In this document: positions 2,228 to 53,400 of the stretch, piece after piece
How positions within the stretch are numbered: position 1 is the stretch's first letter
How the letters are laid out: the number at the start of each line of letters is the position of its first letter
IMG/VR virus record: IMGVR_UViG_3300026122_000001
DNA length: 64,000 bases
Source of the DNA: a virus
Taxonomy: Duplodnaviria > Heunggongvirae > Uroviricota > Caudoviricetes
Reading direction: 5' to 3' (one strand)
Made by a program: the position numbers and the translations under genes
Notes under the pieces: model-generated
Told to the model about the DNA's origin: nothing
Seen by the model: the letters and a program-made list of their open reading frames with translations, nothing else
Database searches by the model: none

Positions 2228-2456
2228 CAGCTATCTCCTTGGTTATCAATTCCTTGCCCCATTGGACTCTGTGCCAGCGGCGCTCATGGTAGTAGTACGC
2301 GAAAATCTTTAGAGCCGAGTCAATGACGCCAATCTCGGCACTTAGCTGTATGTTACCCGTGAAAAGGTAGACCAGCGTGGTTGTGATGGTCACAGAAATC
2401 ACACGCCAGGTACATGCCTTGGCCATCGAGCGGCGTCGTTGACTTGGATCGTGCAT
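2199..2456 (-). CDS. hypothetical small membrane protein
   Basis: 85-aa ORF with a hydrophobic segment (VISVTITTTLVYLFTG). Confidence 0.4.
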   Translation of the reverse strand: MHDPSQRRRSMAKACTWRVISVTITTTLVYLFTGNIQLSAEIGVIDSALKIFAYYYHERRWHRVQWGKELITKEIADDGRSETSP

Positions 2457-2471
2457 ATCAATCTCCTAAAG

Positions 2472-2544
2472 CTCCTGGGGGAGGACTTGAACCTCCAACC
2501 ACCTGATTAACAGTCAGGCGCTCTGCCAATTGAGCTACCCAGGA
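2472..2544 (-). tRNA. tRNA-Asn (anticodon GTT)
   Basis: Reverse complement folds as a 73-nt cloverleaf: acceptor TCCTGGG/CCCAGGA, D-arm GCTC-AATTGGCA-GAGC, anticodon arm CCTGA-CTGTTAA-TCAGG, T-arm GGAGG-TTCAAGT-CCTCC. Confidence 0.8.
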
Positions 2545-2551
2545 TTGGTCG

Positions 2552-2827
2552 TCAGTTACCCTTGGCGATGATGACCACTCGATCGACTTCTGTCAACGTG
2601 GATGTCCGCTCGGGCCCGTCCACGCCCTGCCGGGACTTGCCCGTGACTCGCAGATGGAGCCTGTCGGGGCGGAAGGAATCCGGGAGACCGGTGACTTTGG
2701 TGACCACCATGTGGTTCATCCACAGGCTGGACCCTTGACGCCCGGGGTAGACGATCGTGTCGCCGACCTCGATCTGATTGCCGAAATAATCGTTTGCTAC
2801 CACTTCTGTTGCTGTCGCTGTCGTCAT
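2552..2827 (-). CDS. hypothetical protein
   Basis: 91-aa ORF; 4-nt overlap with the upstream gene. Confidence 0.4.
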   Translation of the reverse strand: MTTATATEVVANDYFGNQIEVGDTIVYPGRQGSSLWMNHMVVTKVTGLPDSFRPDRLHLRVTGKSRQGVDGPERTSTLTEVDRVVIIAKGN

Positions 2828-3366
2828 TTCCTCACCCTTGCTGTAAAAGACTGTGTTTGTGGCGGCAGACAGTAATCTTCACCGCACACACCAAACTTGA
2901 TTGAACCCTGGAGTTCCAGCATCTTCTTGCGATCAAACCCCTGCCGAAAGCTGACTGGTGCATTGTACACGATTTGGCCGATGTGGTAATAGATCGGGGT
3001 GTCCCCGACCATTTTCATCCTCGCGGGTGGCCCAACGGCCTCGAATGTACCAACCTTCCAGTCTGGTGATGGCTCAGGTAAAATCTCCAAGGGCGTTACT
3101 GGAGCCCCAGGTACTTGATTCATTGAGTATAACATACGACCATCGGGTATGTCAATGTAAATCCACACATAATCTTGGAAGGTGTCGTCCATGCAAACAA
3201 ACGGAAGCACGGTAATCACCCCGTTGGTCTGCTCGACGGGCTCCTGGCCGACATCGTCTGCGGGAGCCAGCCAGATACAACAAGCCAGGATGAGTGCCAG
3301 CCCTATAACACAACCGGCAATAGTCCAATCATGTAGTTCAATACGGCGTTGTTCAGGGTGGGTCAT
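2824..3366 (-). CDS. hypothetical membrane-anchored protein
   Basis: 180-aa ORF with an N-terminal TM helix (IAGCVIGLALILACCIWLA). Confidence 0.45.
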   Translation of the reverse strand: MTHPEQRRIELHDWTIAGCVIGLALILACCIWLAPADDVGQEPVEQTNGVITVLPFVCMDDTFQDYVWIYIDIPDGRMLYSMNQVPGAPVTPLEILPEPSPDWKVGTFEAVGPPARMKMVGDTPIYYHIGQIVYNAPVSFRQGFDRKKMLELQGSIKFGVCGEDYCLPPQTQSFTARVRK

Positions 3367-3594
3367 GGTCCAATGCCTCCATTTAGGTAGGTAGCGACTA
3401 CGGCATAGATGCCAATCCAGATGAAGAGAATCTTCAACCGCAGTGGTATCGGTCCTATGGGTTCATGGGGTGCTGGGCTCATGGCATATCTCCCGGGCCC
3501 GGTAATGGGCAGATGGAAATGCAGTAGCCCACGATCATTAGACCGAGTACGATAAGCAGTAAGCAGGTATGCAACGGGTTGGGTGCGCGAGTGC

Positions 3595-4431
3595 TCATAG
3601 CAGCGTTGCTCCCTTGTGCTGCCACGAAAAGGCGAGCTTGCCCGTGGGAAAATAGATCAGTTGCCGTTGCTGATTCGGGTCAGTTGTCTCTGTCAGGCAG
3701 TTTGTCATCGCGACATTTTGCCCAAGGTAATCGTAGACCCGCGCGCCATATGGCAACCGCAGCAACTCCACTGCACCCTCTTCTTGCAGCGTAGTCTCTA
3801 GCAGCCGCAGGCCGAGGAAGTTGGCCTTGATCCATTCGGTATCCCCACCGAGTTCTCGCATGGTCACTTGGTCCACCGAGTCCTCGTGGGCACACTCATC
3901 CAGCATGTTGACCATATTCTCTGCCGACACACCGGGGCCGCCATTATCGGGGTTGAAGGCCGTCTGGGTGGCAATCACCGATAGCCGGGTGGACAAGCCG
4001 ATCTCCGACAGTTCCCTGGTCAAGGTAAACGTGTCTGGAATGTTGGCTGCCATGATCTCTTTGTTCACCGACGGGTCCAAGCTGCACACCGACAGCGCCA
4101 CCCTGGACAGGCCAGCTTCATACAACTCCTTGGCGTAGCTGAGATCAGCCGCCAATCGCATGCCGTTGGTCTGAAGGGTAATGATCGGGAACCCAGCATC
4201 ATGGAGGCGTTGGGTAATCAGCCCCAAACCTGTGCGGTCCAGGGTCGGTTCCCCAACACCGGTGATGATGACTTCATCGAATCCCTTGGCAAGGCGGATC
4301 GCCGTCTCCAGACGCTTGTAGTTATAGGAGACGCCACGACCCTTGTTGCAGGTAATCCTGGAGACACAGAACTTGCAACCGGCATCACAAGCTTTGTCCC
4401 CGACGACCACACTGAATGTTTCAAACTTCAT
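3595..4431 (-). CDS. radical SAM domain protein
   Basis: 'CDAGCKFC' (CxxxCxxC) cluster near the N-terminus and a 'GVGEPTLD' glycine-rich SAM motif. Its stop overlaps the start of the vWA gene. Confidence 0.75.
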   Translation of the reverse strand: MKFETFSVVVGDKACDAGCKFCVSRITCNKGRGVSYNYKRLETAIRLAKGFDEVIITGVGEPTLDRTGLGLITQRLHDAGFPIITLQTNGMRLAADLSYAKELYEAGLSRVALSVCSLDPSVNKEIMAANIPDTFTLTRELSEIGLSTRLSVIATQTAFNPDNGGPGVSAENMVNMLDECAHEDSVDQVTMRELGGDTEWIKANFLGLRLLETTLQEEGAVELLRLPYGARVYDYLGQNVAMTNCLTETTDPNQQRQLIYFPTGKLAFSWQHKGATLL

Positions 4432-5192
4432 TACTTCGAGTCTTTCTCAATGTGCTTGACCGCCGCGACGGCTGCCATTTTGTTACCGCACCGAAGCTGT
4501 GAGACTCCGGCACTCATACCCTTGAACGAACTGCGGGTTCCTTCCATCGAATCCTGATAGGTCGCTGCCAGGTCGGTATCCAGCCCGTAAGTGCGGGCTG
4601 CCAGCACCGCATCTTGGTTGGCGGCCGTGAACACAAATTCCCATTGGTAGACATCTCGTTGATGTTCAACCTTTTGCTTGACAAGCGTGGCTGTGTATTC
4701 GCGGCTGTCGTTTTCATCGCCGTCCGTCATAATGGCGATGATGACCTTGTTGGGTCGCTCTGCCTGTGGGGTGTCACTCAAACGGCGACCCAGACTGTCG
4801 ACGGTACTGCCAATCGCGTCCAGCAAAGCTGTCAGTCCCTGGGTGCAGTAATTGGCAACCGATAGGGGCGGCACCGACTGAATAGGTACACAATCAAGCA
4901 GGGTTCTTTGGCTCTTCGTAGACGAAAACTGGACCAAGGTGACGTTGCAGTCCCCGGGCTGGTTCTTCTGGTCGTCTATCAATTCGTTGAAGCCCGCAAT
5001 GACTTCGCCCTTGACGCCGCGCATGGAGGTGGAGGCGTCCAGAATGATGACCAGTTCCGTGAGATCAGGATTGGTATGCCGACCAGGGCTGAGTTCAGGC
5101 GTAGGGCCGGGCTCGAACACGGGTTGAGGATAATGTGGCTTGCTAGGCATACGAGGGATACGGCCTGCGTTGGGTCGTGTGGGGTCAATCAT
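4431..5192 (-). CDS. von Willebrand factor A (vWA) domain protein
   Basis: 'LVIILDASTSMRG' MIDAS-type DxSxS motif and a later 'IIAIMTDGDEND' block. The annotated ORF extends upstream to 5285, but that extension overlaps tRNA-Thr. Start placed at the internal Met (MIDPTR). Confidence 0.65.
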   Translation of the reverse strand: MIDPTRPNAGRIPRMPSKPHYPQPVFEPGPTPELSPGRHTNPDLTELVIILDASTSMRGVKGEVIAGFNELIDDQKNQPGDCNVTLVQFSSTKSQRTLLDCVPIQSVPPLSVANYCTQGLTALLDAIGSTVDSLGRRLSDTPQAERPNKVIIAIMTDGDENDSREYTATLVKQKVEHQRDVYQWEFVFTAANQDAVLAARTYGLDTDLAATYQDSMEGTRSSFKGMSAGVSQLRCGNKMAAVAAVKHIEKDSK

Positions 5193-5227
5193 TCTGTCTC
5201 TCCTGGGTAGGTAACAAACAACAAAAG

Positions 5228-5300
5228 AGCCGCCAGTGGGAGTCGAACCCACGACATGTTGATTACAAATCAACTGCTCTGCCAACTGAGCTACAGCGGC
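5228..5300 (-). tRNA. tRNA-Thr (anticodon TGT)
   Basis: Reverse complement folds as a 73-nt cloverleaf: acceptor GCCGCTG/TGGCGGC (2 GU pairs), D-arm GCTC-AGTTGGCA-GAGC, anticodon arm GTTGA-TTTGTAA-TCAAC, T-arm GTGGG-TTCGACT-CCCAC. Confidence 0.75.
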
Positions 5301-5368
5301 GAATCAAAACTCTTCTTTGGGTCGCATAACTATTTTTGCCATGGTGCCAAAATCGTCGATTGACCCAA

Positions 5369-5650
5369 TCAAAAAGATCGGCATCCACACAAGCAAACCT
5401 GCTTGGGGGTAAGCACAATAAGCTTCACCCCTGGGATATCCAAATTGGGAGCCACCGGGCGTGTCCCGTATCCAAACTGTGCCAGTTCCCCTGACTTGCG
5501 AGCATCAACGGCATCGGGTAGTTCCTTGAAGGTCCCAAGTTCAACCCGCTTGCCACCAACACCAATACGAGCCCGCCATTTCTTTGCAGATTTGCACCAA
5601 TTAACCCCGGGTGTGCCAGACTTGTTGTCATTACGTTTTCGTTGTCGCAT
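5369..5650 (-). CDS. AP2/ERF-like DNA-binding domain protein
   Basis: 'GVNWCKSAKKWRARIGVGGKRVELGTF' matches the AP2 domain signature (YRGV..W.A.I...G..V.LGTF) common in phage HNH-associated proteins. Confidence 0.55.
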   Translation of the reverse strand: MRQRKRNDNKSGTPGVNWCKSAKKWRARIGVGGKRVELGTFKELPDAVDARKSGELAQFGYGTRPVAPNLDIPGVKLIVLTPKQVCLCGCRSF

Positions 5651-5672
5651 AGTTCTGTCTCAAGTGGATGTG

Positions 5673-5689
5673 CGGAGAATTGAACTCCG
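5673..5689 (-). ncRNA. isolated tRNA T-arm-like motif (CGGAG-TTCAATT-CTCCG) in a 320-nt non-coding region
   Basis: Reverse complement reads CGGAGTTCAATTCTCCG followed by CACATCCA. No complementary 5' acceptor strand or clean D/anticodon arms were found nearby, so I do not call it a tRNA. Confidence 0.25.
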
Positions 5690-6037
5690 GTCCTGCGATA
5701 CGGTCTCAAGCCCACGTCTACATGCTTAGCCACCCTTTATTTACCTGTCCCGAGAGTCGAGTGGCGTACTGACGGGCAGGTTGCGGCTGGACGGTTCTAT
5801 TTCCTCACCAACAACCCAGCGTAGGTCAATAAGGAGCATCCGGGTTACTAGGCCGCTGTGCTAACCTACCGGCAAGGTTGTCACGCCTACTGCCTGAGCA
5901 GCTAGTGCTCACGCAGACATCGCAAACAAATCATGTTTGGCGATTAAAGGTTTGGTCAGCTTTTAATGTAGCCTACTGACCAACTACGGCATGCAGTGGT
6001 ACTCTTCTGGTACCCAGTCGAATCCTGTCACCCCCTG

Positions 6038-6397
6038 TTAGTTCGGCACCTGTATGGTCACGAGTGCATTCGGATAGAAATAAAATCGTCGCTGATCCTT
6101 GAAGCTCGGGGTCCTCAAAGTGGCGTTCCACATGGGGCCTTCGTGGCCTCGCATAGCCTCGCGGTTCGTAAACGCACAAGCTTGTGGCTCGCGGGTGTAG
6201 GTAAGCCCATGATGCTCGAACTTCCACCAACGAGGTACTTTCTTAAACGTCGTGATAATCATCCGCATCGCTGCCCTCCCCTGTGAGTCCATTGGGTAGC
6301 CAGTCAGCGCCACAGCAACATGGGTCCCCGTCCGTGGGAGCCGTCGGTGAGGCATTACAGACACGGCTGAGTTGTCGATCAATATGCTTGGTATCAC
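6038..6397 (-). CDS. hypothetical protein (start uncertain)
   Basis: 119-aa ORF that overlaps the neighbouring 71-aa ORF in another frame. The true start may be an internal Met. Confidence 0.35.
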   Translation of the reverse strand: MIPSILIDNSAVSVMPHRRLPRTGTHVAVALTGYPMDSQGRAAMRMIITTFKKVPRWWKFEHHGLTYTREPQACAFTNREAMRGHEGPMWNATLRTPSFKDQRRFYFYPNALVTIQVPN

Positions 6398-6454
6398 GAT
6401 TGTGAGCCACGGCCGTATCCCGTATGGCCATCAAGCATTTGGGGCACTTCATCT

Positions 6455-6458
<4 letters not shown>
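6243..6458 (-). CDS. small Cys-rich (CPKC...CCC) hypothetical protein
   Basis: 71-aa ORF with CxxC and CCC motifs suggesting a zinc ribbon. Confidence 0.35.
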
Positions 6459-6877
<419 letters not shown>

Positions 6878-7516
6878 TCAGTCATCGATCCCTTCCCAGG
6901 CGCTGTCCGCGATGGACTTGTACAGCCCACCCAGTGTGTCGTAAACCCAACCGCAGAAGCGTCGGACCGGGTCGTTGATGACCAGCCACAAACAACTCCA
7001 TGGCCAGAAGATCATCCACCCCGTGATGCGATCCTTGCTCCGGCTGTATTCAGGCTTCTTTGTCCACTGACCGTAACTGTTGGCGAGTTGTTCTTTCCAC
7101 CCGGCCTTCACTTCCCCAGTCAGCTTACCAGTCTCCAATGCTTTTCGATAATTGGCATCGGTCGTGTTGCCAAAACCACGATCGATCTGTATCTGGAGCC
7201 ACTGTGCCCGTCTTCGTTTGTACTCTCTGGCCACGTAGCGAGTAAAGGCTCGCCACTTAACGATACTGTAGCCCACGCCGACCGCTGCGTAGCCGAGTAC
7301 CGACAACCCGAAGTTCAGCGGGTTGGCAAACACCCAGTCGAGCCAGGTGGAATTTCCTAGCCCCAGCATCGCGCCCAGGGCAACGACGGAAACAAACACG
7401 GCCCAGCCGCCAGACTGTTTCTCTAGCGACAACAGGATCAGCAGCGAGGCAACAATGAACAAACCCCAAAACCAGAGGCCGCCAAACACAAACAACGTCA
7501 ATAAAGCTTCAGACAT
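6878..7516 (-). CDS. hypothetical integral membrane protein
   Basis: 212-aa ORF with several hydrophobic helices (LFVFGGLWFWGLFIVASLLILL; VFVSVVALGAMLGL; GYAAVGVGYSIV). Confidence 0.5.
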   Translation of the reverse strand: MSEALLTLFVFGGLWFWGLFIVASLLILLSLEKQSGGWAVFVSVVALGAMLGLGNSTWLDWVFANPLNFGLSVLGYAAVGVGYSIVKWRAFTRYVAREYKRRRAQWLQIQIDRGFGNTTDANYRKALETGKLTGEVKAGWKEQLANSYGQWTKKPEYSRSKDRITGWMIFWPWSCLWLVINDPVRRFCGWVYDTLGGLYKSIADSAWEGIDD

Positions 7517-25785: not shown

Positions 25786-25911
25786 AGGTTAAGGAATAAG
25801 GACTTCTACCATCTCCTATTCTAACCTCGATGACGTTCCATGTCAATAGAAAAGCACGACCTTTTCAGATCGTGCTTTCCGTCAGATCACGTCGACTACG
25901 GCTCGTGTGTC

Positions 25912-26871
25912 TCAATAGTGTGGGTTTTGCCGAGCGAAATCGGCCATGACCTTGGGTGCCCCGGCGTCGAAGCCGACCACATCCATCATTCCGGCGTCAT
26001 TCGGGTCCGCAATGGACACTCTGTTGGCCGTGAATGCAACGACAATCATTTTGGCGTCGATCCCCATCTTGCGACGGTACTCCTGTAGGACTACCGACGG
26101 GTGCCCACTATGGGAGTTTGTGTCGTTATCCGTGTAGATGCAGAACACATCGACTGGAATCTTGTTCTCCATGGCGTAGATCATCGGCAACGCACAGTCT
26201 GTGCCGCCCCAGGCAGCGTCCTGGGTCAACCGCCGAACCTCTGTCAGTGAGGACCGCTTGGTAATCGGCATGGGCTTCAGGTGGTGACAGAACGCGAAGC
26301 ACGCAACCTGCTCCTCCGTTCGGACCAACGTGGTCGCCATGCACCCGGCGGCGTCCGCTGGTGTCAGATGCGTGTTACTGATCGTATCAAATCGCATGGA
26401 GCCGGAGACATCGATCCCGACCAGATAGCGTTTACCGGTAGGCTCCACAGAGCCAAATGAGGCATCATAGGCGTCTTCCAAGGCATCACAGACCTGAGAG
26501 ACCGGGTTCCACTGGAGGCTGCCCTTCACGCCTTTACCAGCACTGTAGGTCGTCAGGGCCAACAGAACATTGAACGGATGAATCCGCTGCTTGGCCAGGG
26601 CCTCTTTGTCACGAAGCTGGTCACAGACCATCTTGGTGTGTTTGGTATTCGGCCGCAGGACCCCAATACTGGACATCTTGCCCAGATTGCGAATCATCGC
26701 CGTGAGCGGCATCCCCAAGTTCAGTAGGGCTTCCCACACCACTGGCTCATTCAGGAACTGAGTAGGGACGCACTCGCGCACAAGTCCGTATTCCTCAATC
26801 AGCATGGCTGCATATTCGGCACTTGGTGCGGCTTTGATAGCCTCCACACCCTGCAACGTAAGGCCGACCAT
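25912..26871 (-). CDS. rsr: Ro60 (TROVE/vWA) orthologue lacking the N-terminal ~200 residues
   Basis: 'EALLNLGMPLTAMIRNLGKM', 'RIHPFNVLLALTTY', 'VEPTGKRYLVGIDVSGSM' and 'GGTDCALPMIYA...DVF...TDNDT...HP..LQEYRRKMGIDAKMIV...ADPNDAGMMDVVGFDAGAP' are collinear with human Ro60 from about residue 200 to the C-terminus. No ORF encoding the missing HEAT-repeat N-terminus lies upstream. Confidence 0.8.
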   Translation of the reverse strand: MVGLTLQGVEAIKAAPSAEYAAMLIEEYGLVRECVPTQFLNEPVVWEALLNLGMPLTAMIRNLGKMSSIGVLRPNTKHTKMVCDQLRDKEALAKQRIHPFNVLLALTTYSAGKGVKGSLQWNPVSQVCDALEDAYDASFGSVEPTGKRYLVGIDVSGSMRFDTISNTHLTPADAAGCMATTLVRTEEQVACFAFCHHLKPMPITKRSSLTEVRRLTQDAAWGGTDCALPMIYAMENKIPVDVFCIYTDNDTNSHSGHPSVVLQEYRRKMGIDAKMIVVAFTANRVSIADPNDAGMMDVVGFDAGAPKVMADFARQNPHY

Positions 26872-27330
26872 GTACCGGAACTCCGGTCGAACACCCTCAC
26901 CCGTCTCGGACGGGAGCGCTCACACGCTCACTTTCACTTGTTGTTGCTGGCCAGGTTGCCCGTTTCCTAACCAGGCTTGTTGGTGCTGGCTCAGGAACGC
27001 CCTGGGTTACCCCACAGACGAACCCGAAACCAGGCTTGTTCAATGGCCTCGAACAAAGTGCGGCTTGGAGTTTATTCTACTGGCGCTCTCCCAACTGAGC
27101 TACCCCCTGCATACATCGAAAGGCGGGGAGGAGGATTTGAACCACCGACATCCAGTTCCCTTGATAATCCAAACCAACGGCTCAAGGCCAAGCAAGCACT
27201 AGGGGACTCGAACCCCTAACCGACGACCATCGCACTTGCATAAAAGGTGGAGCTTGCTGGGATACGACTGCCTACTGAAAGGGTTTCGTCCCCCAACCGC
27301 TCCATAAGGATGCCACGAACAAGTTTGCAA
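26872..27330 (-). ncRNA. array of non-canonical tRNA-like modules; candidate Y RNA(s) (YrlA-like)
   Basis: On the minus strand: two T-arm mimics (AGGGG-TTCGAGT-CCCCT with extended 7-bp stem at 27199-27220; GGTGG-TTCAAAT-CCTCC at 27128-27146) and one acceptor+D-arm mimic (GCAGGGGGTAGCTCAGTTGGGAGAGCGCC at 27080-27110). None closes into a cloverleaf. There are also hairpins and a 13-nt direct repeat (aaccaggcttgtt at 26969 and 27028). All sit immediately 5' of the Ro60-like gene. Confidence 0.35.
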
Positions 27331-27543
27331 CCGAGGGATTAAATTGTGCTTGATAACCCTCGACCAGCGGCTCGTGGCAAGTGCCGACGCCGGGTACTCG
27401 ATCCCGGCGAAGGCTGTGTCTCACTACATCGGACCGTCCTCCATGGTTAGTGTCCGCTTGTCGTTTGTTTCCTCTCGTCATTCCTTACATTCTCAATTAT
27501 ATCACACTCGGACAGGGTTGTCAAACAGAAACCTTGAATTTGG

Positions 27544-28686: not shown

Positions 28687-28758
28687 GTGGGGCATAGGGG
28701 AATTGAACCCCTGTTGCCGGGTTGAAGGCCCGGTGTCCTAACCACTAGACGAATGCTC
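28687..28758 (-). tRNA. tRNA-Glu (anticodon TTC)
   Basis: Reverse complement GGAGCATTCGTCTAGTGGTTAGGACACCGGGCCTTCAACCCGGCAACAGGGGTTCAATTCCCCTATGCCCCA. D-arm GTCTAGTGGTTAGGACACC closely matches E. coli tRNA-Glu. Anticodon arm CCGGG-CCTTCAA-CCCGG; T-arm AGGGG-TTCAATT-CCCCT. Confidence 0.8.
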
Positions 28759-29050
28759 CTGGGTCTGCTGTCACAATTCGGTACATGTGTTGAAGAATCT
28801 CTGCCTCACACCAGCTAGAAAAACTTGACAGTGTGTAATCAGCGGCTGCCATATCTACCCAAAATGTGATATACAACGGGCGACCATCCTGGCACGGCAT
28901 CATCACCTGGATCATGCGTCCGCCGGGACCATGCCTGGGTGATGGCTGCACTGTGACCGTGCCACCATACTGAGCCGCCATGGTGCGAATCCGACCCAAC
29001 CTCAGAGGCTTAAAATTCATGGCCACATGGACACTCCCGTTTACGTACAT
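28745..29050 (-). CDS. hypothetical protein (trimmed from longer ORF)
   Basis: The long ORF's N-terminus overlaps the basic zinc-ribbon gene out of frame. An internal Met (MYVNG) gives a 102-aa product. Confidence 0.3.
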   Translation of the reverse strand: MYVNGSVHVAMNFKPLRLGRIRTMAAQYGGTVTVQPSPRHGPGGRMIQVMMPCQDGRPLYITFWVDMAAADYTLSSFSSWCEAEILQHMYRIVTADPGAFV

Positions 29051-31174: not shown

Positions 31175-31239
31175 CAGTGGTCGGTTCCCGTCTCAGTGAC
31201 CAAACATCGATCGGGGCCGTTCTTCCGGGTCATAAGTTT

Positions 31240-31331
31240 GGCCCGTAGAGGAATCGAACCCCTGACTCCCCACCCACCGCCGTGTTCAACATTGGTAGGA
31301 CCAGGGTGCTTTACCACTAAGCTAACGAACC
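31240..31331 (-). tRNA. long (92-nt) tRNA-like gene, anticodon unresolved
   Basis: Reverse complement has acceptor GGTTCGT/ACGGGCC (2 GU pairs), D-arm GCTT-AGTGGTA-AAGC and T-arm AGGGG-TTCGATT-CCTCT. The 44-nt region between D- and T-arms does not fold into a clear anticodon arm by eye. Confidence 0.45.
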
Positions 31332-31341
31332 GAACCGTAAG

Positions 31342-31415
31342 TAGCGGAGGCTGGACTCGAACCAGCGGTCTCCAGGTTATGAGCCTGACGAGATGACCAT
31401 CTTCTCTACTCCGCA
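31342..31415 (-). tRNA. tRNA-Met/fMet/Ile2 (anticodon CAT)
   Basis: Reverse complement: D-arm GAGA-AGATGGTCA-TCTC, anticodon arm TCAGG-CTCATAA-CCTGG, T-arm GCTGG-TTCGAGT-CCAGC, acceptor TGCGGAG/CTCCGCT with a 1:72 T.T mismatch. Confidence 0.7.
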
Positions 31416-50400: not shown

Positions 50401-53400
50401 TGACGCTGCTGGTCCAGTAGATCATCTCCCCAGACTGCTGTGTGGATATCTGTTCAACAGAATCCTCCTGGGTGTAATTGAGCAGCCTGTATTCCGAGCC
50501 ATCCGTATTGCAGACATAAATCCCGGCATCATAAGACGCCGCCCCAGAGTTCAGCATGATGATCTGTGACTTATCAAAGTTGACCCCGATGTTCCCAGTC
50601 CGGTCATCACAGATCGGTCGGGCAACTGGGTTGGAACCCCAGGCTTTGAAGTAGGTGCCCTCGACTGTGAATTCACCGTTGTCGGCCACACCATTATACC
50701 AGTCGGGAATCATGGTAAGATCACCATGGTCATAGCCACGGACGACGCCATTCACCACGGTGGCAGCAACGCCTTGCAGGTCAGTGACGGTGTCACTTGT
50801 GTAGTTCACGTCACCGATCAGAATGTCAGTTGCCCGGGCCTCGAAAGCAATAGCTGTTTCGTTGTTCCACACATACCATTGGCCACCACTGTAGTGTACC
50901 GCCACTGTGTGCTCGCTCCAGCTTGTTGGATACGATGCATATGCGAAGCGGGTGCCAGCGTCTTCCTCAGTGTACATAATCCACCCGGTTCCAGACCAGG
51001 AGTCAGGTCCACCAAAACCGGGCCCTGTGTCCCCAAGGAACTTGTACCGCGAAGCATCACAGAAGCCTACGCCTGCTGTGTAGAAGTCTCCTGAGGTAAA
51101 TGTGTTCAGGTACCAGGGGCTTTGCGCAGCACACCACATATCGGGGCTTGAGCCGCCTTGATAGAAGGTGTCACAGTTGATGGTGCAATCGTCCATCTCG
51201 TCTAGGGCTTGAGCATTGGTATTCACCAGAGACACGTTGCCCGGGCTATCAATGGTTTGGCCATTCATATCAAGATCGCCATGTCGCCCATAGAAATTTG
51301 CGGGTTGGACCCCGCCACTTAGGACAATATCGTTGGCGTCTTCGACAAAGATACAGCCTTCATTGATGGTCGTGCGATTCTCGAACCACTCTGTGTCGCT
51401 GTCTAACGGCAACAGCCATCGCATGCTGGACTTGTGGTAATGTTTGGGACTCGCACCTTGGGCTAGCGGGCCTGGCAGCACCGCAGAATCCCATTTGCCC
51501 CAGTCTTTCATGTGGCCCACGAACTTGTACCCGTCCGGCAAATAGTCAGCGTAGTTGCCCAAAGTCGCATTGTCATTGGGGTCGGCTTCTAACACAGACC
51601 CACAGGCTGCGGTTGCATCGAGTTCCCCATCGATATACAATTCGACATTGTTGTTGTAACGTCGCAGCCAAATATGCCGCCACCTGTCACATTGGCCAAT
51701 GAGTGTTGTGACGCTAGCGAAGTTGATACCAACCCCGTTAGAACCCTCGTACCCAAATCGTACCTTGCCAGGGTAGATGGCATGATCCGCGTTGTATAAA
51801 AGAATTGTCACGGACGGAGTTGACAACCAGGTGTTACCACCCACGGCTGTGGCAAAAAGCACCTCATAGCTACCGCCGGGAACCCCCGTCGCGGGCCGAA
51901 TCCAGCCACCCAAAGCCCATTCGGCATCAGCCGACCCACCAGCAAACGGCGTGGCATTGTTCATATGGAACTCGCCTGTCCCGTCAAAGTAGTAGCAAGG
52001 CCAGGTGCCTTGGCTCAGCGTATCGATTTCCAAATCACAGAAATCAACATCCCCTGGGGTGGCCCCCGTGCTGAGATCGATGTGACCGGTGCCACGGGTC
52101 CAGACAAACTCACCGGTGCCGCTTATGGCATCAATGACATCATCACTGATGTCCCAACGAACATCACGGCCCGAACAATCAACTGTCACGTCGGATGTAG
52201 AACCACCGGTGATGGCGATAGCCAGATCAACCGCAGCAATCGTAACCGGTGTGTATGTGGAACAGTCAATTGTTAGGTCCCCACCGGTGCCTTGCCCACG
52301 GAATGCAAGTTGGCCACCGAAGGCATAATCACCAGCCCGGAAGGCAAAGTTGGCAGTGCCGGAGTCAACACGAGCAGTGAAGGTGCCAGTTTCGTAGGTT
52401 CCCGGTGTGAACACGGCTGAGGCCGCTGGGTTGATTGCAAACATGGCAGCAATGGAGGCCGTGCCAGCAATATCTTCAACGCCTGCCCCGCCCGTGGAGC
52501 CATTGAAGTAGATGTAACCATCTCCACTGAGAGTACCACCAGATTCGAGCGCGAGCTTGGCACCGCTCCCCATCTGGATGGTAGTCCCCGAGTCCACAAC
52601 CATTTCGCAGCCATCATCGATTTCCAACCGACCGCTGATATTGAGATCGCCCGAGGTGAGCGTGTAACCACCATCAAAGGTGCTGTAGACATTGAAACAC
52701 CGGAGTTCCGTGATGTCGCTACCGGCTGCGCGGGCTGCCCAAGTCTGTGGTGATCGTGGTCGGATAGAGCAGGTGATGTTTTGTGTCCCAGTATGTGCAG
52801 TGTCATCCCAGTCTTGCGGGTAAATGATGGCATTGGTCATTGCTACTGCACCGCTGCCAGCCAATGTGATAGTTGGACCCCACAGGTTCCCACCCGTAAT
52901 CGTCAGGTCACCGGCTATCAGACTGATGCTACCACACGCATCGGAGTCGGGAGTCGTCATTGTGAGACCATACCCACCAGTTTTGTTACTGATAATATGC
53001 TCGTAAGTCCCAGACATCTGGAAGAGGCTGTCTTGGGTGCCACCAAGGAACGAGATCGTACCCGTGCCTGAATCCCACAGGCTGTTACCACTAGAGTTGT
53101 CTGTGTACGTCAGGTCTCCATAGAACTGGTAGTTGGGGTTGTTTGTGTCACCCTCGATATAGATGGCATTCATGCCCGTTCCGTAGGTATGGAAAAGCAG
53201 GTTGTTGAAGACATACGTCCCTGCTGACGGGGTCCAGGTCCCAACTTCGGCACCGGAGTAGATATTACGGACTTGAACCGAACCTGTGATGTTTGAGTAG
53301 TCGCCCGCAACCAACACTGGGGTAGTTGACCCCGATACCAAATCCATGAGCAAATCACCACATGAGATCGTACCATCCAGAAGCACGAGGCCATGCCCGT

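What the first reader, a model, noticed from the sequence alone, without database searches (positions are those of the whole stretch)
25912..27330. N-terminally truncated Ro60 orthologue immediately preceded by an array of non-canonical tRNA-like modules (candidate Y RNA)
The 319-aa protein is collinear with the C-terminal two-thirds of Ro60 (RNLGKM, RIHPF, VEPTGKR, DVSGSM MIDAS, GGTDC..PMIYA, ADPND...GFD) but lacks the HEAT-repeat N-terminus that forms the RNA-binding ring. Directly 5' of it on the same strand lie T-arm and D-arm/acceptor mimics that cannot close into cloverleaves. Bacterial Rsr proteins are known to be encoded next to YrlA-type Y RNAs that contain tRNA-like domains. A phage-borne, shortened Ro with its own tRNA-mimicking RNA next to tRNA and RNA-repair genes would be unusual, and could be an RNA-surveillance or decoy module.
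Basis: partly seen in the sequence, partly recalled or inferred. Interest (0 to 1): 0.75.

Follow-up and report, generated by a model that had tools for sequence, protein, structure and literature searches.

The report
Phage Y-RNA array beside deletion-truncated Ro
An uncultivated large phage carries a promoter-driven array of Ro-associated "Y" RNAs, one of them a tRNA mimic. The Ro protein gene next to it has lost its RNA-binding ring through a roughly 1-kb deletion, so this is a damaged copy of a known phage module, not a new kind of system.

Summary
ORF 26871-25912 (-) encodes 319 aa that match Ro60 residues about 229-534: the last HEAT repeats plus the vWA/MIDAS domain. Directly upstream on the same strand, behind a perfect sigma-70 promoter, lie two Y RNAs. 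M4 (27193-27040) is YrlA-like, with a circularly permuted T-arm / closed acceptor / D-arm domain. A model built without this phage scores it 81 bits, E 3e-18. M1 (27380-27309) is a short Y hairpin. At least three other structured hairpins sit in the same array.

The closest relative (83% identical protein) has a full-length 529-aa Ro. Alignment shows a deletion of about 1 kb in the window. It removed Ro codons 1 to about 214, a 93-aa ORF and two-thirds of a conserved structured RNA. A new in-frame ATG comes from former non-coding sequence. No N-terminal Ro sequence was found in the window, nor in two database searches, which are indirect for the rest of the genome.

The truncated protein lacks the region that holds the known Y-RNA contact residues and cannot close the ring. 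It is most likely a recent remnant. The Y RNAs remain structurally intact. Phage Ro plus Y RNA is already known.

One side result stands out. The short Y hairpins of this clade resemble metazoan stem-bulge/Y RNAs, sharing the bulged-C helix and the GGUUAUC motif.

The parts
27496..27524 (-). Sigma-70-type promoter TTGACA-17-TATAAT with TG extension. It drives the RNA array and, with no terminator in between, the truncated Ro ORF.
   Evidence: 12 of 12 consensus matches. Conserved in L001. L003 and L007 have similar promoters at the head of their arrays.
27383..27414 (-). M0: extended hairpin GCCUUCGCCGGG-AUCGAGUA-CCCGGCGUCGGC with a T-loop-like 8-nt loop. It lies in the 5' part of the transcript. 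Role unknown.
   Evidence: Sequence and fold. The stem is conserved in L001. The whole-segment fold is not better than shuffles (z = -1.0), so support is weak.
27309..27380 (-). M1: short Y RNA (YrlB-like hairpin). It has a lower stem with the GAGC-C-G / UUGUUC helix, an internal loop, and an upper stem ending in GGUUAUC.
   Evidence: R2, which is independent of this phage: 35.2 bits, E 3.5e-7. R1: 62.8 bits, but M1 is in that seed. Fold z = -3.45. Family alignment of 34 sequences: 9 of 14 pairs show compensatory changes. Rfam nematode sbRNA model RF01656: 27.7 bits. A paired C/G indel relative to L001 keeps the lower stem.
27248..27304 (-). M2: very stable conserved hairpin, closed by UGGAGC/GCUCCA. 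The closing stem overlaps a 3' GCUCC-ACC. Role unknown.
   Evidence: Fold: -29.7 kcal/mol, z = -4.81. 90.5% identical to L001. All substitutions relative to L001 are unpaired, wobble or pair-improving.
27192..27239 (-). M3: tRNA-like minihelix. An 8-bp acceptor-like stem (GCAAGUGC/GUGCUUGC) encloses a canonical T arm (GGGG-UUCGAGU-CCCC). It sits directly 5' of M4 and is a candidate processing signal (inferred).
   Evidence: T-loop pattern hit at 27214-27204. Fold z = -2.2. 94% identical to L001. A homologous hairpin precedes the YrlA-like RNA in L003, where it gave a weak mascRNA hit.
27040..27193 (-). M4: YrlA-like Y RNA. A Y stem (GGCCUUGAGC/GUUCGAGGCC, then GGUUUGGA-UUAUC/UCCAAGCC) encloses a circularly permuted tRNA-like domain at 27154-27081. 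In order: anticodon-like stem, 5-nt variable loop, T arm, closed acceptor-like stem, UA, D arm.
   Evidence: R2, built without the window and L001: 81.1 bits, E 2.6e-18, full length. Rfam YrlA: 21.3 bits here and 28.9-31.7 bits in L001, L003 and L007. The MFE fold reproduces the architecture. T arm, acceptor-like stem and lower stem covary among 8 loci.
26908..27039 (-). M5: non-coding stretch with three predicted hairpins. The first 69 nt are 94% identical to L001 4320-4388. Role unknown.
   Evidence: The fold is only marginally better than shuffles (z = -1.65).
26863..26907 (-). Remnant: the 5' third of a ~125-nt conserved structured RNA that is intact in relatives (L001 about 4411-4535, L003 about 5163-5290, L007 about 4116-4235). 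It now supplies the GGAG and the ATG of the truncated ORF.
   Evidence: The closing stem covaries in relatives. The 3' two-thirds are absent from the window.
26852..26863 (-). Deletion junction, good to about 10 nt. Upstream sequence matches L001 up to position 4455. Downstream sequence matches L001 from about 5468-5473. About 1,013 bp are missing, and the breakpoints share GGC.
   Evidence: blastn and the junction alignments.
25912..26871 (-). Truncated Ro60 ORF of 319 aa. It holds the last HEAT repeats (helices up to about residue 141) plus the vWA domain, with an intact MIDAS (D154-x-S156-x-S158, T224, D248).
   Evidence: AlphaFold pLDDT 92.8. TM 0.90 normalised to the query, against the C-terminal part of Rsr 2nvo.
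25845..25878 (-). Terminator-like hairpin (AAAGCACGA ... UCGUGCUUU followed by UCUAUU) that ends the unit. The next promoter follows at 25846-25818.
   Evidence: Read from the sequence. The 10-nt loop exceeds the scanner's limit, so one search did not list it. One search does list the following promoter.

Best explanation
This is a phage Ro60/Y-RNA module of the known bacterial and phage type, in which the protein gene has been crippled by a deletion.

The RNA part. A strong sigma-70 promoter (27524-27496, minus strand) transcribes a polycistronic array of structured RNAs:
- M1, a short Y hairpin;
- M4, a YrlA-like Y RNA whose Y stem carries a circularly permuted tRNA-like domain;
- several other hairpins, two of them with T-arm-like loops. 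These probably act as processing or stability elements (inferred).

The protein part. In sister phages the same unit continues through another conserved structured RNA and small ORFs into a full-length Ro60 (TROVE ring plus vWA). In this phage a deletion of about 1,013 bp, whose breakpoints share only GGC, removed three things: the 3' two-thirds of that RNA, a 93-aa ORF, and Ro codons 1 to about 214. An ATG that arose in the former non-coding sequence (ACG to ATG) is in frame with the rest. That gives a 319-aa ORF holding only the last HEAT repeats and the vWA/MIDAS domain.

Consequence. The lost part contains the region where Y-RNA contact residues were mapped in a phage Ro60, and it makes up more than half of the ring. 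The product therefore cannot act as a Ro ring (inferred). It is most likely a recent, not yet decayed remnant. The Y RNAs are structurally intact. If they still work, they do so through host factors such as a host Rsr or PNPase (inferred).
For: Truncation and deletion (shown):
- The protein covers Ro60 229-534 only.
- tblastn of full-length relatives finds nothing N-terminal anywhere in the 64 kb.
- The nearest relatives have 529-, 527- and 521-aa Ro in syntenic loci.
- blastn and the junction alignments define the deletion.
- The N-terminal profile found no hit on a contig of this genome's size in JGI metagenomes.
- No stand-alone N-terminal ORF of this lineage exists among 5.8 billion proteins: the best hit is 60% identical and sits on unrelated contigs.

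Y RNAs (shown):
- Independent model R2 gives 81.1 bits (E 2.6e-18) for M4 and 35.2 bits for M1.
- Rfam YrlA hits the homologous site in four lineages.
- Stems covary.
- Differences from L001 inside M1, M2 and M4 are mostly compensatory or pair-neutral, including a paired indel.
- The array is 85% identical to L001, while synonymous sites show dS 0.66-1.6.

Loss of RNA binding (inferred from homology):
- P0002 residues 207-395 align to phiRo60 192-362.
- phiRo60's RNA-contact residues R137-K193 (PMC12135203) therefore lie before the truncated protein's first residue.

The ATG is new:
- L001 and L003 have ATACGG and L007 has ACCGTGG where the window has ACATGG.
Against: - The remaining ORF shows no decay. 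There are no stops or frameshifts in 957 nt. dN/dS against L001 is 0.18, within the range of neighbouring genes. There are 14 lineage-specific amino-acid changes against 16 in the intact sister. MIDAS residues are all present. A recent deletion fits this, but so does a protein still under selection.
- A start codon and a GGAG nine bases upstream exist, so the fragment may be expressed.
- Only 64 kb of a 156-kb contig could be read. The searches for an N-terminal fragment elsewhere are indirect.
- No expression data exist for any of the RNAs.
Confidence: 0.7

Rival explanations
1. The 319-aa protein is a selected, functional short form. A vWA/MIDAS domain with a four-repeat HEAT stub would act as an adaptor or decoy for a host partner of Ro. 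The Y RNAs would act separately on host Rsr or PNPase.
For: The ORF is intact, with dN/dS 0.18 and no excess of amino-acid changes over the full-length sister lineage. All MIDAS residues are kept. A new ATG arose by substitution, with GGAG nine bases upstream. AlphaFold gives a confident compact model, pLDDT 92.8. In Thermus phage phiLo the Yrl RNAs bind host PNPase without Ro60 (PMC12135203).
Against: Only one genome carries this form, and every other relative found is full length. The selection signal cannot be told apart from pre-deletion history. GGAG is ancestral (L003 has it too), and half of it lies in a hairpin stem. AlphaFold's confidence reflects the alignment of full-length homologues, not the stability of the fragment. 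Removing more than half of a closed alpha-solenoid ring should expose its core (inference).
Confidence: 0.2
2. The truncation is not biological. Either it is an assembly artefact or a minority variant, or Ro is a split gene whose N-terminal half is encoded outside the 64-kb window.
For: Only 64 kb of the 156-kb contig is visible. The three assemblies that carry the protein (JGI, Logan, ENA) may derive from the same reads. A split Ro (193 aa plus 349 aa) exists on another large contig, L075.
Against: The breakpoints share only 3 nt and no repeat, which is not a typical collapse error. The L075 case is two overlapping ORFs at one site, that is a frameshift, not a relocation. N-terminal searches found no fragment attributable to this genome.
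Confidence: 0.07
3. The tRNA-like modules are decayed tRNA genes or tRNA fragments of a phage tRNA cluster, not Y RNAs.
For: The window carries five tRNAs and a tmRNA on the same strand. Rfam YrlA scores are below the gathering threshold.
Against: The T-arm, acceptor, D-arm order is permuted and is enclosed by a Y stem with conserved GAGCCG / GGUUAUC / UUGUUCG blocks. The same architecture recurs next to Ro genes in eight unrelated loci, with covarying stems. Decay would not preserve compensatory changes.
Confidence: 0.03

Closest known systems
Bacterial and phage Ro60 (Rsr) with YrlA/YrlB Y RNAs (Chen et al. 2014, RNA 20:1715, PMC4201824; Rfam RF02553)
   Same: The Y RNAs are encoded upstream of Ro on the same strand and within 4 kb. 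One carries a tRNA-like domain with the T arm, closed acceptor-like stem and D arm in YrlA order. A second is a simple hairpin like YrlB. Both come from one precursor, as in M. smegmatis.
   Different: Sequence is divergent: 21-32 bits against a gathering score of 69. The 5' motif is (C/U)GAGCCG, not GNCGAAN0-1G. A GGUUAUC block caps the upper stem. Extra hairpin modules are interleaved. In this window the Ro partner lacks its N-terminal 210-odd residues.
Thermus phage phiLo Ro60 with Yrl1/Yrl2 (Hu et al. 2025, NAR, PMC12135203; PDB 9KOP, 9L5Y)
   Same: A phage-encoded Ro with two Y-like RNAs directly upstream. Those RNAs bind host PNPase, which gives a precedent for Ro-independent contacts of phage Y RNAs.
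   Different: phiRo60 is a full ring and only about 22% identical to this protein. Its Yrl RNAs are not described as having a tRNA-like domain (the term does not occur in the paper's main text). Its RNA-contact residues (137-193) correspond to the part deleted here.
Mycobacteriophage, Gordonia and Streptomyces phage 'Ro-like RNA binding protein' genes
   Same: The same protein family in large tailed phages that also carry tRNAs and a tmRNA. 361 GenBank phage records match, 353 of them over at least 80% of the 319 aa.
   Different: Only 38-42% identical. The window's phage has no close relative among 50,697 deposited phages, by DNA or by helicase protein.
Metazoan Y RNAs and nematode stem-bulge RNAs (Rfam RF00019, RF01656)
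   Same: The short Y hairpins share three features with them: the lower-stem helix with a bulged C (GAGC-C-G/UUGUUC against GGUC-C-G/UUGACC), ACUUG on the 3' strand, and GGUUAUC at the stem-loop junction. Six independent loci are hit full length by RF01656 (23-35 bits) and one by RF00019.
   Different: All scores are below gathering (38 bits). These RNAs are transcribed from a bacterial-type promoter within an array. Homology as opposed to convergence is not established.

Membership tests
Ro60 / TROVE protein family | An N-terminal HEAT-repeat (TROVE) domain that forms a closed ring | tested here: not met
   Only TROVE profile positions 278-351 of 442 are present. The alignment to Ro60 starts at residue 229. 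No N-terminal part exists elsewhere in the window.
Ro60 / TROVE protein family | A C-terminal Ro-type vWA domain with a MIDAS motif (DxSxS, T, D) | tested here: met
   PF25045 at 202 bits over positions 1-165 of 165. D154, S156, S158, T224 and D248 are invariant in 62 homologues and present here. The model superposes on Rsr 2nvo with TM 0.90 normalised to the query.
Ro60 / TROVE protein family | A Y-RNA-binding surface on the outer face of the ring | tested here: not met
   phiRo60 contact residues R137-K193 (PMC12135203) map N-terminal of the truncated protein's start, because P0002 207 aligns to phiRo60 192. This is mapping by homology; binding itself was not tested.
YrlA (Rfam RF02553) | A score at or above the family's gathering threshold (69 bits) | tested here: not met
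   21.3 bits in the window. 31.7, 29.3 and 28.9 bits in L001, L003 and L007.
YrlA (Rfam RF02553) | A tRNA-like domain made of a T arm, a closed acceptor-like stem-loop and a D arm, in that order, inside a closing stem | tested here: met
   cmscan alignment. The MFE fold reproduces it. The helices covary among 8 loci. Independent model R2 gives 81.1 bits.
YrlA (Rfam RF02553) | Encoded within 4 kb of a Ro gene on the same strand (criterion of Chen et al. 2014) | tested here: met
   M4 ends 169 nt upstream of the truncated Ro ORF, on the same strand. In L001, L003 and L007 it lies about 0.9 to 2.6 kb upstream of full-length Ro.
YrlA (Rfam RF02553) | A GNCGAAN0-1G motif near the 5' end (the proposed Ro contact) | tested here: inconclusive
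   The window has UUGAGCCG in M4 and ACGAGCCG in M1. The CGA/UGA core is present but the full motif is not. The variant is conserved across the clade, and A-U to G-C covariation with the 3' strand shows it is helical.
YrlA (Rfam RF02553) | Bound by Ro/Rsr in vivo and carrying tRNA-type modifications | not testable with these tools
   This needs immunoprecipitation and modification mapping.
Metazoan Y RNA / nematode sbRNA (RF00019, RF01656) | A score at or above gathering (38 bits) | tested here: not met
   27.7 bits for window M1. The best relative reaches 34.6 bits, L012.
Metazoan Y RNA / nematode sbRNA (RF00019, RF01656) | A stem-bulge-stem with a bulged C in the lower helix and a UUAUC motif at the loop | tested here: met
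   Alignment to RF01656. UUAYC was present in 7 of 7 candidates ascertained without that motif. The motif is described in PMC4726728.

The most novel reading that the evidence does not exclude
The most novel reading has two parts.

First, the Y-RNA array is the real effector of this module. It would work without a phage-encoded Ro ring, by engaging a host Rsr or PNPase. That would explain why the RNAs stay intact after the phage's own Ro lost its RNA-binding half.

Second, the short Y hairpins of this phage clade would be true homologues of animal Y and stem-bulge RNAs. They share the bulged-C Ro-binding helix, ACUUG and GGUUAUC, and they sit beside a Ro that is 43-54% identical to vertebrate Ro60. 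That would point to horizontal transfer of the whole ribonucleoprotein between animals and bacteria or phages.
Probability: 0.15. Interest if true: 0.7.

Novelty: new variant of a known kind. Interest (0 to 1): 0.42.

Why it matters
The headline feature, a shortened Ro, is most simply a deletion allele and says little on its own. The locus is still useful in two ways.

1. It is a natural experiment. Two sister phages, 83% identical in Ro, differ by having or lacking the ring of Ro, while both keep the Y-RNA array. Comparing them would test directly whether phage Y RNAs need the phage's own Ro.

2. It exposes a clade of phage-borne Y RNAs that Rfam's YrlA model misses at its threshold. Their short members look more like animal Y and stem-bulge RNAs than any bacterial Y RNA described in the papers I could read. 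This bears on the long-standing question of how the Ro/Y RNP came to be shared by animals and a minority of bacteria.

Tried and rejected
- **Long-range closing helix.** I considered a helix pairing 27446-27420 (GGUCCGAUG, identical to the vertebrate GGUCCGA motif) with 26897-26869, which would make one giant Y RNA. Rejected: the L001 substitutions on the two strands are not compensatory, and the 3' strand belongs to a separate conserved RNA.
- **Repeated genome motif.** I asked whether the segment 26907-26863 is a repeated promoter or terminator motif. It occurs once.
- **Close relatives among deposited phages.** Megablast of the locus found no match. A helicase protein search found only hits at or below 39% identity over partial coverage, so host and taxon stay unknown.
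- **Single-protein scan of IMG/VR for relatives.** It gave only two distant loci. A DNA pattern for the short Y hairpin was far more productive.
- **Model R1 for short Y RNAs.** It finds only M1 in the window, and M1 is in its seed, so I do not count it as independent evidence.
- **Another short Ro, P0068 (349 aa).** It turned out to be the second of two overlapping ORFs, a frameshifted gene, and not a parallel to this deletion.
- **My own early estimate of conservation.** My first figure, that the RNA array is 92-95% identical to L001, was wrong. The measured value is 84.9%, with M2 at 90.5%, M3 at 94.2%, M4 at 87.2% and M1 at 82.2%.
- **Rfam search of the conserved leader RNA in L001.** Nothing better than E 1.8.
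- **Two further T-loop-like sites (53279-53269, 62710-62700).** They do not fold into T arms.
Full report
**What is at the coordinates**

On the minus strand, ORF 26871..25912 encodes 319 aa.
- Pfam finds a complete Ro-type vWA domain (PF25045, 202 bits, positions 1-165 of 165). It finds only positions 278-351 of the 442-position TROVE profile.
- phmmer against PDB aligns residues 6-313 to human Ro60 229-534 (E 8e-79), Xenopus Ro60 229-534 (1e-76) and D. radiodurans Rsr 230-531 (2e-72).
- An AlphaFold model is confident (mean pLDDT 92.8) and superposes on the C-terminal part of Rsr 2nvo, with TM 0.90 normalised to the query and 0.59 normalised to the target. That confidence comes from an alignment of full-length homologues. 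It says nothing about whether the fragment is stable on its own.
- The MIDAS residues (D154, S156, S158, T224, D248) are present and are invariant in 62 homologues.

**Why the protein is short**

The protein database holds this exact sequence on contigs of up to 156 kb. Its nearest relatives are all full length:
- P0002: 83% identical, 529 aa.
- P0003: 66% identical, 527 aa.
- P0004: 66% identical, 521 aa.

Their loci are syntenic with the window. tblastn of these three proteins against the whole window finds only the C-terminal part, starting at residue 207-217.

blastn of the window against the P0002 locus (L001) gives these blocks:

| Window | L001 | Note |
|---|---|---|
| 28759-27037 | 2264-3987 | aligned |
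| absent | 3988-4319 | includes an 89-aa ORF |
| 27039-26971 | 4320-4388 | aligned |
| 26907-26863 | 4411-4455 | aligned |
| absent | 4456-5472 | a 93-aa ORF and Ro codons 1 to about 214 |
| 26857-25003 | 5473-7321 | aligned |

At the junction the window reads GGTACATGGTCGGC|CTTACGTTGCAGGG. L001 reads GGTATACGGTTGGC|TGGCGGG on one side and CACCGGC|CACCTGTTGCAGGG on the other. This is a deletion of about 1,013 bp whose breakpoints share only GGC, placed to within about 10 nt.

The start codon of the 319-aa ORF lies in what was non-coding sequence. L001 and L003 have ATACGG and L007 has ACCGTGG where the window has ACATGG. The GGAG nine bases upstream is also present in L003, so it is probably ancestral.

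**Is the N-terminal half somewhere else?**

- It is not in the window.
- A profile of the N-terminal 210 residues, scanned over JGI metagenome contigs, found 45 loci. None was on a contig of this genome's length.
- The same region searched against 5.8 billion proteins found no stand-alone fragment closer than 60% identity, and none on a 156-kb or 100-kb contig.

These tests are indirect, because I could read only 64 kb of the contig. Another short Ro in the hit list (P0068, 349 aa) is the downstream half of a gene split into two overlapping ORFs on a 194-kb contig. That is a frameshift at one site, not a comparable deletion.

**State of the remaining ORF**

Nei-Gojobori dN/dS between the window and L001 over the retained part is 0.18, within the range of neighbouring genes (0.04-0.43). 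With P0003 and P0004 as outgroups, the window lineage has 14 private amino-acid changes and the intact L001 lineage has 16. There is no sign of relaxed constraint. Either the deletion is recent relative to the split (dS 0.66), or the fragment is still useful. One genome cannot separate these two.

**What the fragment cannot do**

P0002 residues 207-395 align to Thermus phage phiRo60 residues 192-362. The residues shown by mutagenesis to hold that protein's Y RNA are R137, K141, K142, R163, R169, R173, R178 and K193 (PMC12135203). All therefore fall before the first residue of the 319-aa protein. More than half of the HEAT-repeat ring is missing as well. I infer, without a test, that the fragment cannot form a ring or bind Y RNA in the canonical way.

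**The RNA array: M4, the YrlA-like Y RNA**

Upstream of the ORF a perfect TTGACA-17-TATAAT promoter with a TG extension sits at 27524-27496. No intrinsic terminator is predicted before the ORF. A terminator-like hairpin follows the ORF at about 25878-25845.

- Rfam's YrlA model aligns 27154-27081 as T arm (GGUGG-UUCAAAU-CCUCC), closed acceptor-like stem (UCCCC...GGGGG), UA, D arm (GCUC-AGUUGGGA-GAGC) and a closing stem. The score is 21 bits against a threshold of 69.
- The homologous sites in L001, L003 and L007 score 28.9-31.7 bits.
- I collected eight such RNAs from unrelated Ro-containing loci. In all of them the T arm, the acceptor-like stem and the lower Y stem pair, with different sequences. 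Acceptor examples are UCCCC/GGGGG, CCUCC/GGAGG, CUCCC/GGGAG and CACGC/GCGUG.
- A covariance model built from seven of them, leaving out the window and L001, scores window 27193-27040 at 81.1 bits (E 2.6e-18) over its full length.
- The minimum-free-energy fold of this stretch reproduces the whole architecture.

This is a YrlA-type Y RNA in structure and context, though it fails the Rfam threshold.

**The RNA array: M1, the short Y hairpin**

The same model scores 27383-27306 at 35.2 bits (E 3.5e-7) through its Y stem. This 72-nt hairpin folds far better than shuffles (z = -3.45).

- The pattern GAGCCG-N8-16-GGTTATC-N20-50-TTGTTCG found 20 stretches in IMG/VR. Most are clear hairpins and many lie next to Ro genes.
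- A relaxed pattern found more copies directly upstream of Ro in loci that had been retrieved by protein alone.
- In an alignment of 34 copies, 9 of 14 predicted pairs show double, pair-preserving changes. One is A-U to G-C within the conserved blocks: GAGCCG/UUGUUCG against GGGCCG/UUGCCCG.
- The conserved blocks were partly imposed by my patterns. When I dropped the loop motif from the pattern, all 7 candidates still carried UUAYC.

This matches the simple-hairpin second Y RNA (YrlB, Yrn2) that Chen et al. 2014 found in every species they examined.

**Other modules in the array**

- M2 (27304-27248) is a very stable hairpin (z = -4.8). Its differences from L001 are all unpaired, wobble or pair-improving.
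- M3 (27239-27192) is an acceptor-plus-T-arm minihelix directly 5' of M4. A homologue sits at the same place in L003.
- M0 (27414-27383) is a long hairpin with a T-loop-like loop.
- M5 (27039-26908) has three predicted hairpins and weak statistical support.

I propose that the T-arm hairpins serve as processing or stabilising elements of the precursor. This is an inference only. M. smegmatis YrlA is cleaved by RNase P, and its YrlA and YrlB come from one precursor.

The array is 84.9% identical to L001, with M2 at 90.5%, M3 at 94.2%, M4 at 87.2% and M1 at 82.2%. Synonymous sites of neighbouring genes show dS 0.66-1.6. Differences inside helices are largely compensatory: two double changes in the M4 T arm and acceptor stem, and a paired C/G indel in the M1 lower stem. 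The RNAs have therefore been under structural selection since the two phages diverged. Which lineage changed cannot be told.

**Comparison with what is known**

- Ro with upstream Y RNAs, one of them a tRNA mimic, is established for over 250 bacteria and 22 phages (PMC4201824).
- 361 GenBank phage records encode a Ro-like protein.
- A Thermus phage Ro60 with two upstream Yrl RNAs has been solved, and its Yrl RNAs were shown to bind host PNPase even without Ro60 (PMC12135203).
- Jumbo-phage surveys also list TROVE proteins with a tRNA-like partner (PMC7824862).

So the kind of system is known. Three things differ here:
- the deletion-truncated Ro;
- the divergent Y stem (GAGCCG in place of GNCGAA), together with the interleaved extra hairpins;
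- the phage itself, which has no close relative among deposited phages.

I did not see RNA-repair genes within 10 kb either side.

**An unexpected resemblance**

The best Rfam hit to M1 is not YrlA. It is the nematode stem-bulge RNA family RF01656: 27.7 bits, full length, E 0.0027 in the 1-kb search.

Five further short Y hairpins from independent loci are hit by the same model at 23.4-34.6 bits, against a gathering score of 38. One is hit by vertebrate Y_RNA at 24.6 bits.

The alignment pairs phage GAGC-C-G/UUGUUC with metazoan GGUC-C-G/UUGACC, which is the Ro-binding helix with its bulged C. Two pairs are changed on both sides. ACUUG and GGUUAUC are retained. UUAUC is the loop motif conserved in sbRNAs and vertebrate Y RNAs (PMC4726728). 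The same review states that bacterial Y RNAs are highly divergent from vertebrate ones.

All scores are sub-threshold, and convergence on a common Ro surface is a sufficient explanation. I therefore record this as a lead, not a result.

**Verdict**

The Y-RNA interpretation is supported and extended to two Y RNAs in a promoter-driven array. The truncated Ro is a deletion allele of a full-length gene and is most likely a recent remnant.

Remaining uncertainty:
- The fragment may be a selected short form (about 0.2).
- The truncation may be an artefact, or the gene may be split (about 0.07).

The module is a variant of a known phage system. Its value lies in the natural with-and-without-ring comparison against its sister phage, and in the metazoan-like short Y RNAs.

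Noticed in passing
window 26863-26907 (-); intact copies at L001 about 4411-4535, L003 about 5163-5290, L007 about 4116-4235: A structured RNA of about 125 nt lies between the Y array and Ro in three phage lineages. Its conserved blocks are GGGUGAGGGUGUUC, GGAAGAUU and CCGGCGUCAGYGAAAG..GCAGUAACC. The closing stem covaries: GAGACGGGU/ACCCGUCUC, AACAGUGGGU/ACCUACUGUU and AAGCGGGU/ACCCGCUU. No Rfam family matches it (best E 1.8). The ORFs downstream of it are not homologous to each other, so it may be an independent RNA, not a gene-specific leader. The window keeps only its 5' third.
   Followed up: partly
window 27309-27380 (-); L012 2917-2985, L065 833-899, L048 2820-2887, L041 2909-2981, L024 2099-2162: Short Y hairpins next to phage or metagenomic Ro genes are hit full length by the nematode stem-bulge RNA model RF01656 (23-35 bits, gathering 38), and once by vertebrate Y_RNA. 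They share the bulged-C helix, ACUUG and GGUUAUC with animal Y and sbRNAs.
   Followed up: partly
L075 3448-5050: On a 194-kb contig, Ro is split into two ORFs of 193 aa (TROVE) and 349 aa that overlap by 29 nt. This could be a frameshifted gene, a sequencing error or programmed frameshifting.
   Followed up: partly
window 5662-6035 (-), 2471-2544, 5227-5300, 28687-28759, 31239-31415 (-): The phage carries a tmRNA (111 bits) and five tRNAs, all on the minus strand. The tRNA-Arg(CCU) at 31239-31331 is 93 nt long, which is unusual for tRNA-Arg. It may have a long extra arm or an insertion.
   Followed up: no
window 53269-53279 and 62700-62710 (-): Two further exact matches to the T-loop pattern GGTTCRANNCC lie on the same strand as all the tRNAs but outside any called tRNA. 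When folded they show no T stem, so they are probably chance matches or coding sequence.
   Followed up: partly
L001 3988-4319, against the window 27039/27037 join: The sister phage has about 330 bp, with an 89-aa ORF, inserted between the YrlA-like RNA and the next RNA module. The window lacks this. The RNA array therefore tolerates gene-sized insertions or deletions.
   Followed up: no
L033 2313-2435 and 2697-2828; L040 2565-2696: Matches to the tRNA model that span 123-132 nt (41-47 bits) lie directly upstream of Ro genes in soil metagenome contigs. They may be tRNAs with long insertions, or another form of tRNA-like Y RNA.
   Followed up: no
window 27248-27304 (-): Hairpin M2 is the most stable element of the array (z = -4.8). 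Its 3' end reads GCUCC-ACC, with the GCUCCA inside the closing stem, which is reminiscent of an acceptor stem with a discriminator and CC.
   Followed up: no
L003 3830-4440: The sister lineage L003 carries five Y-stem modules in one array. Three are short hairpins, one is YrlA-like, and one has a T arm and a longer insert. The window has two. Copy number of Y modules therefore varies between close relatives.
   Followed up: partly
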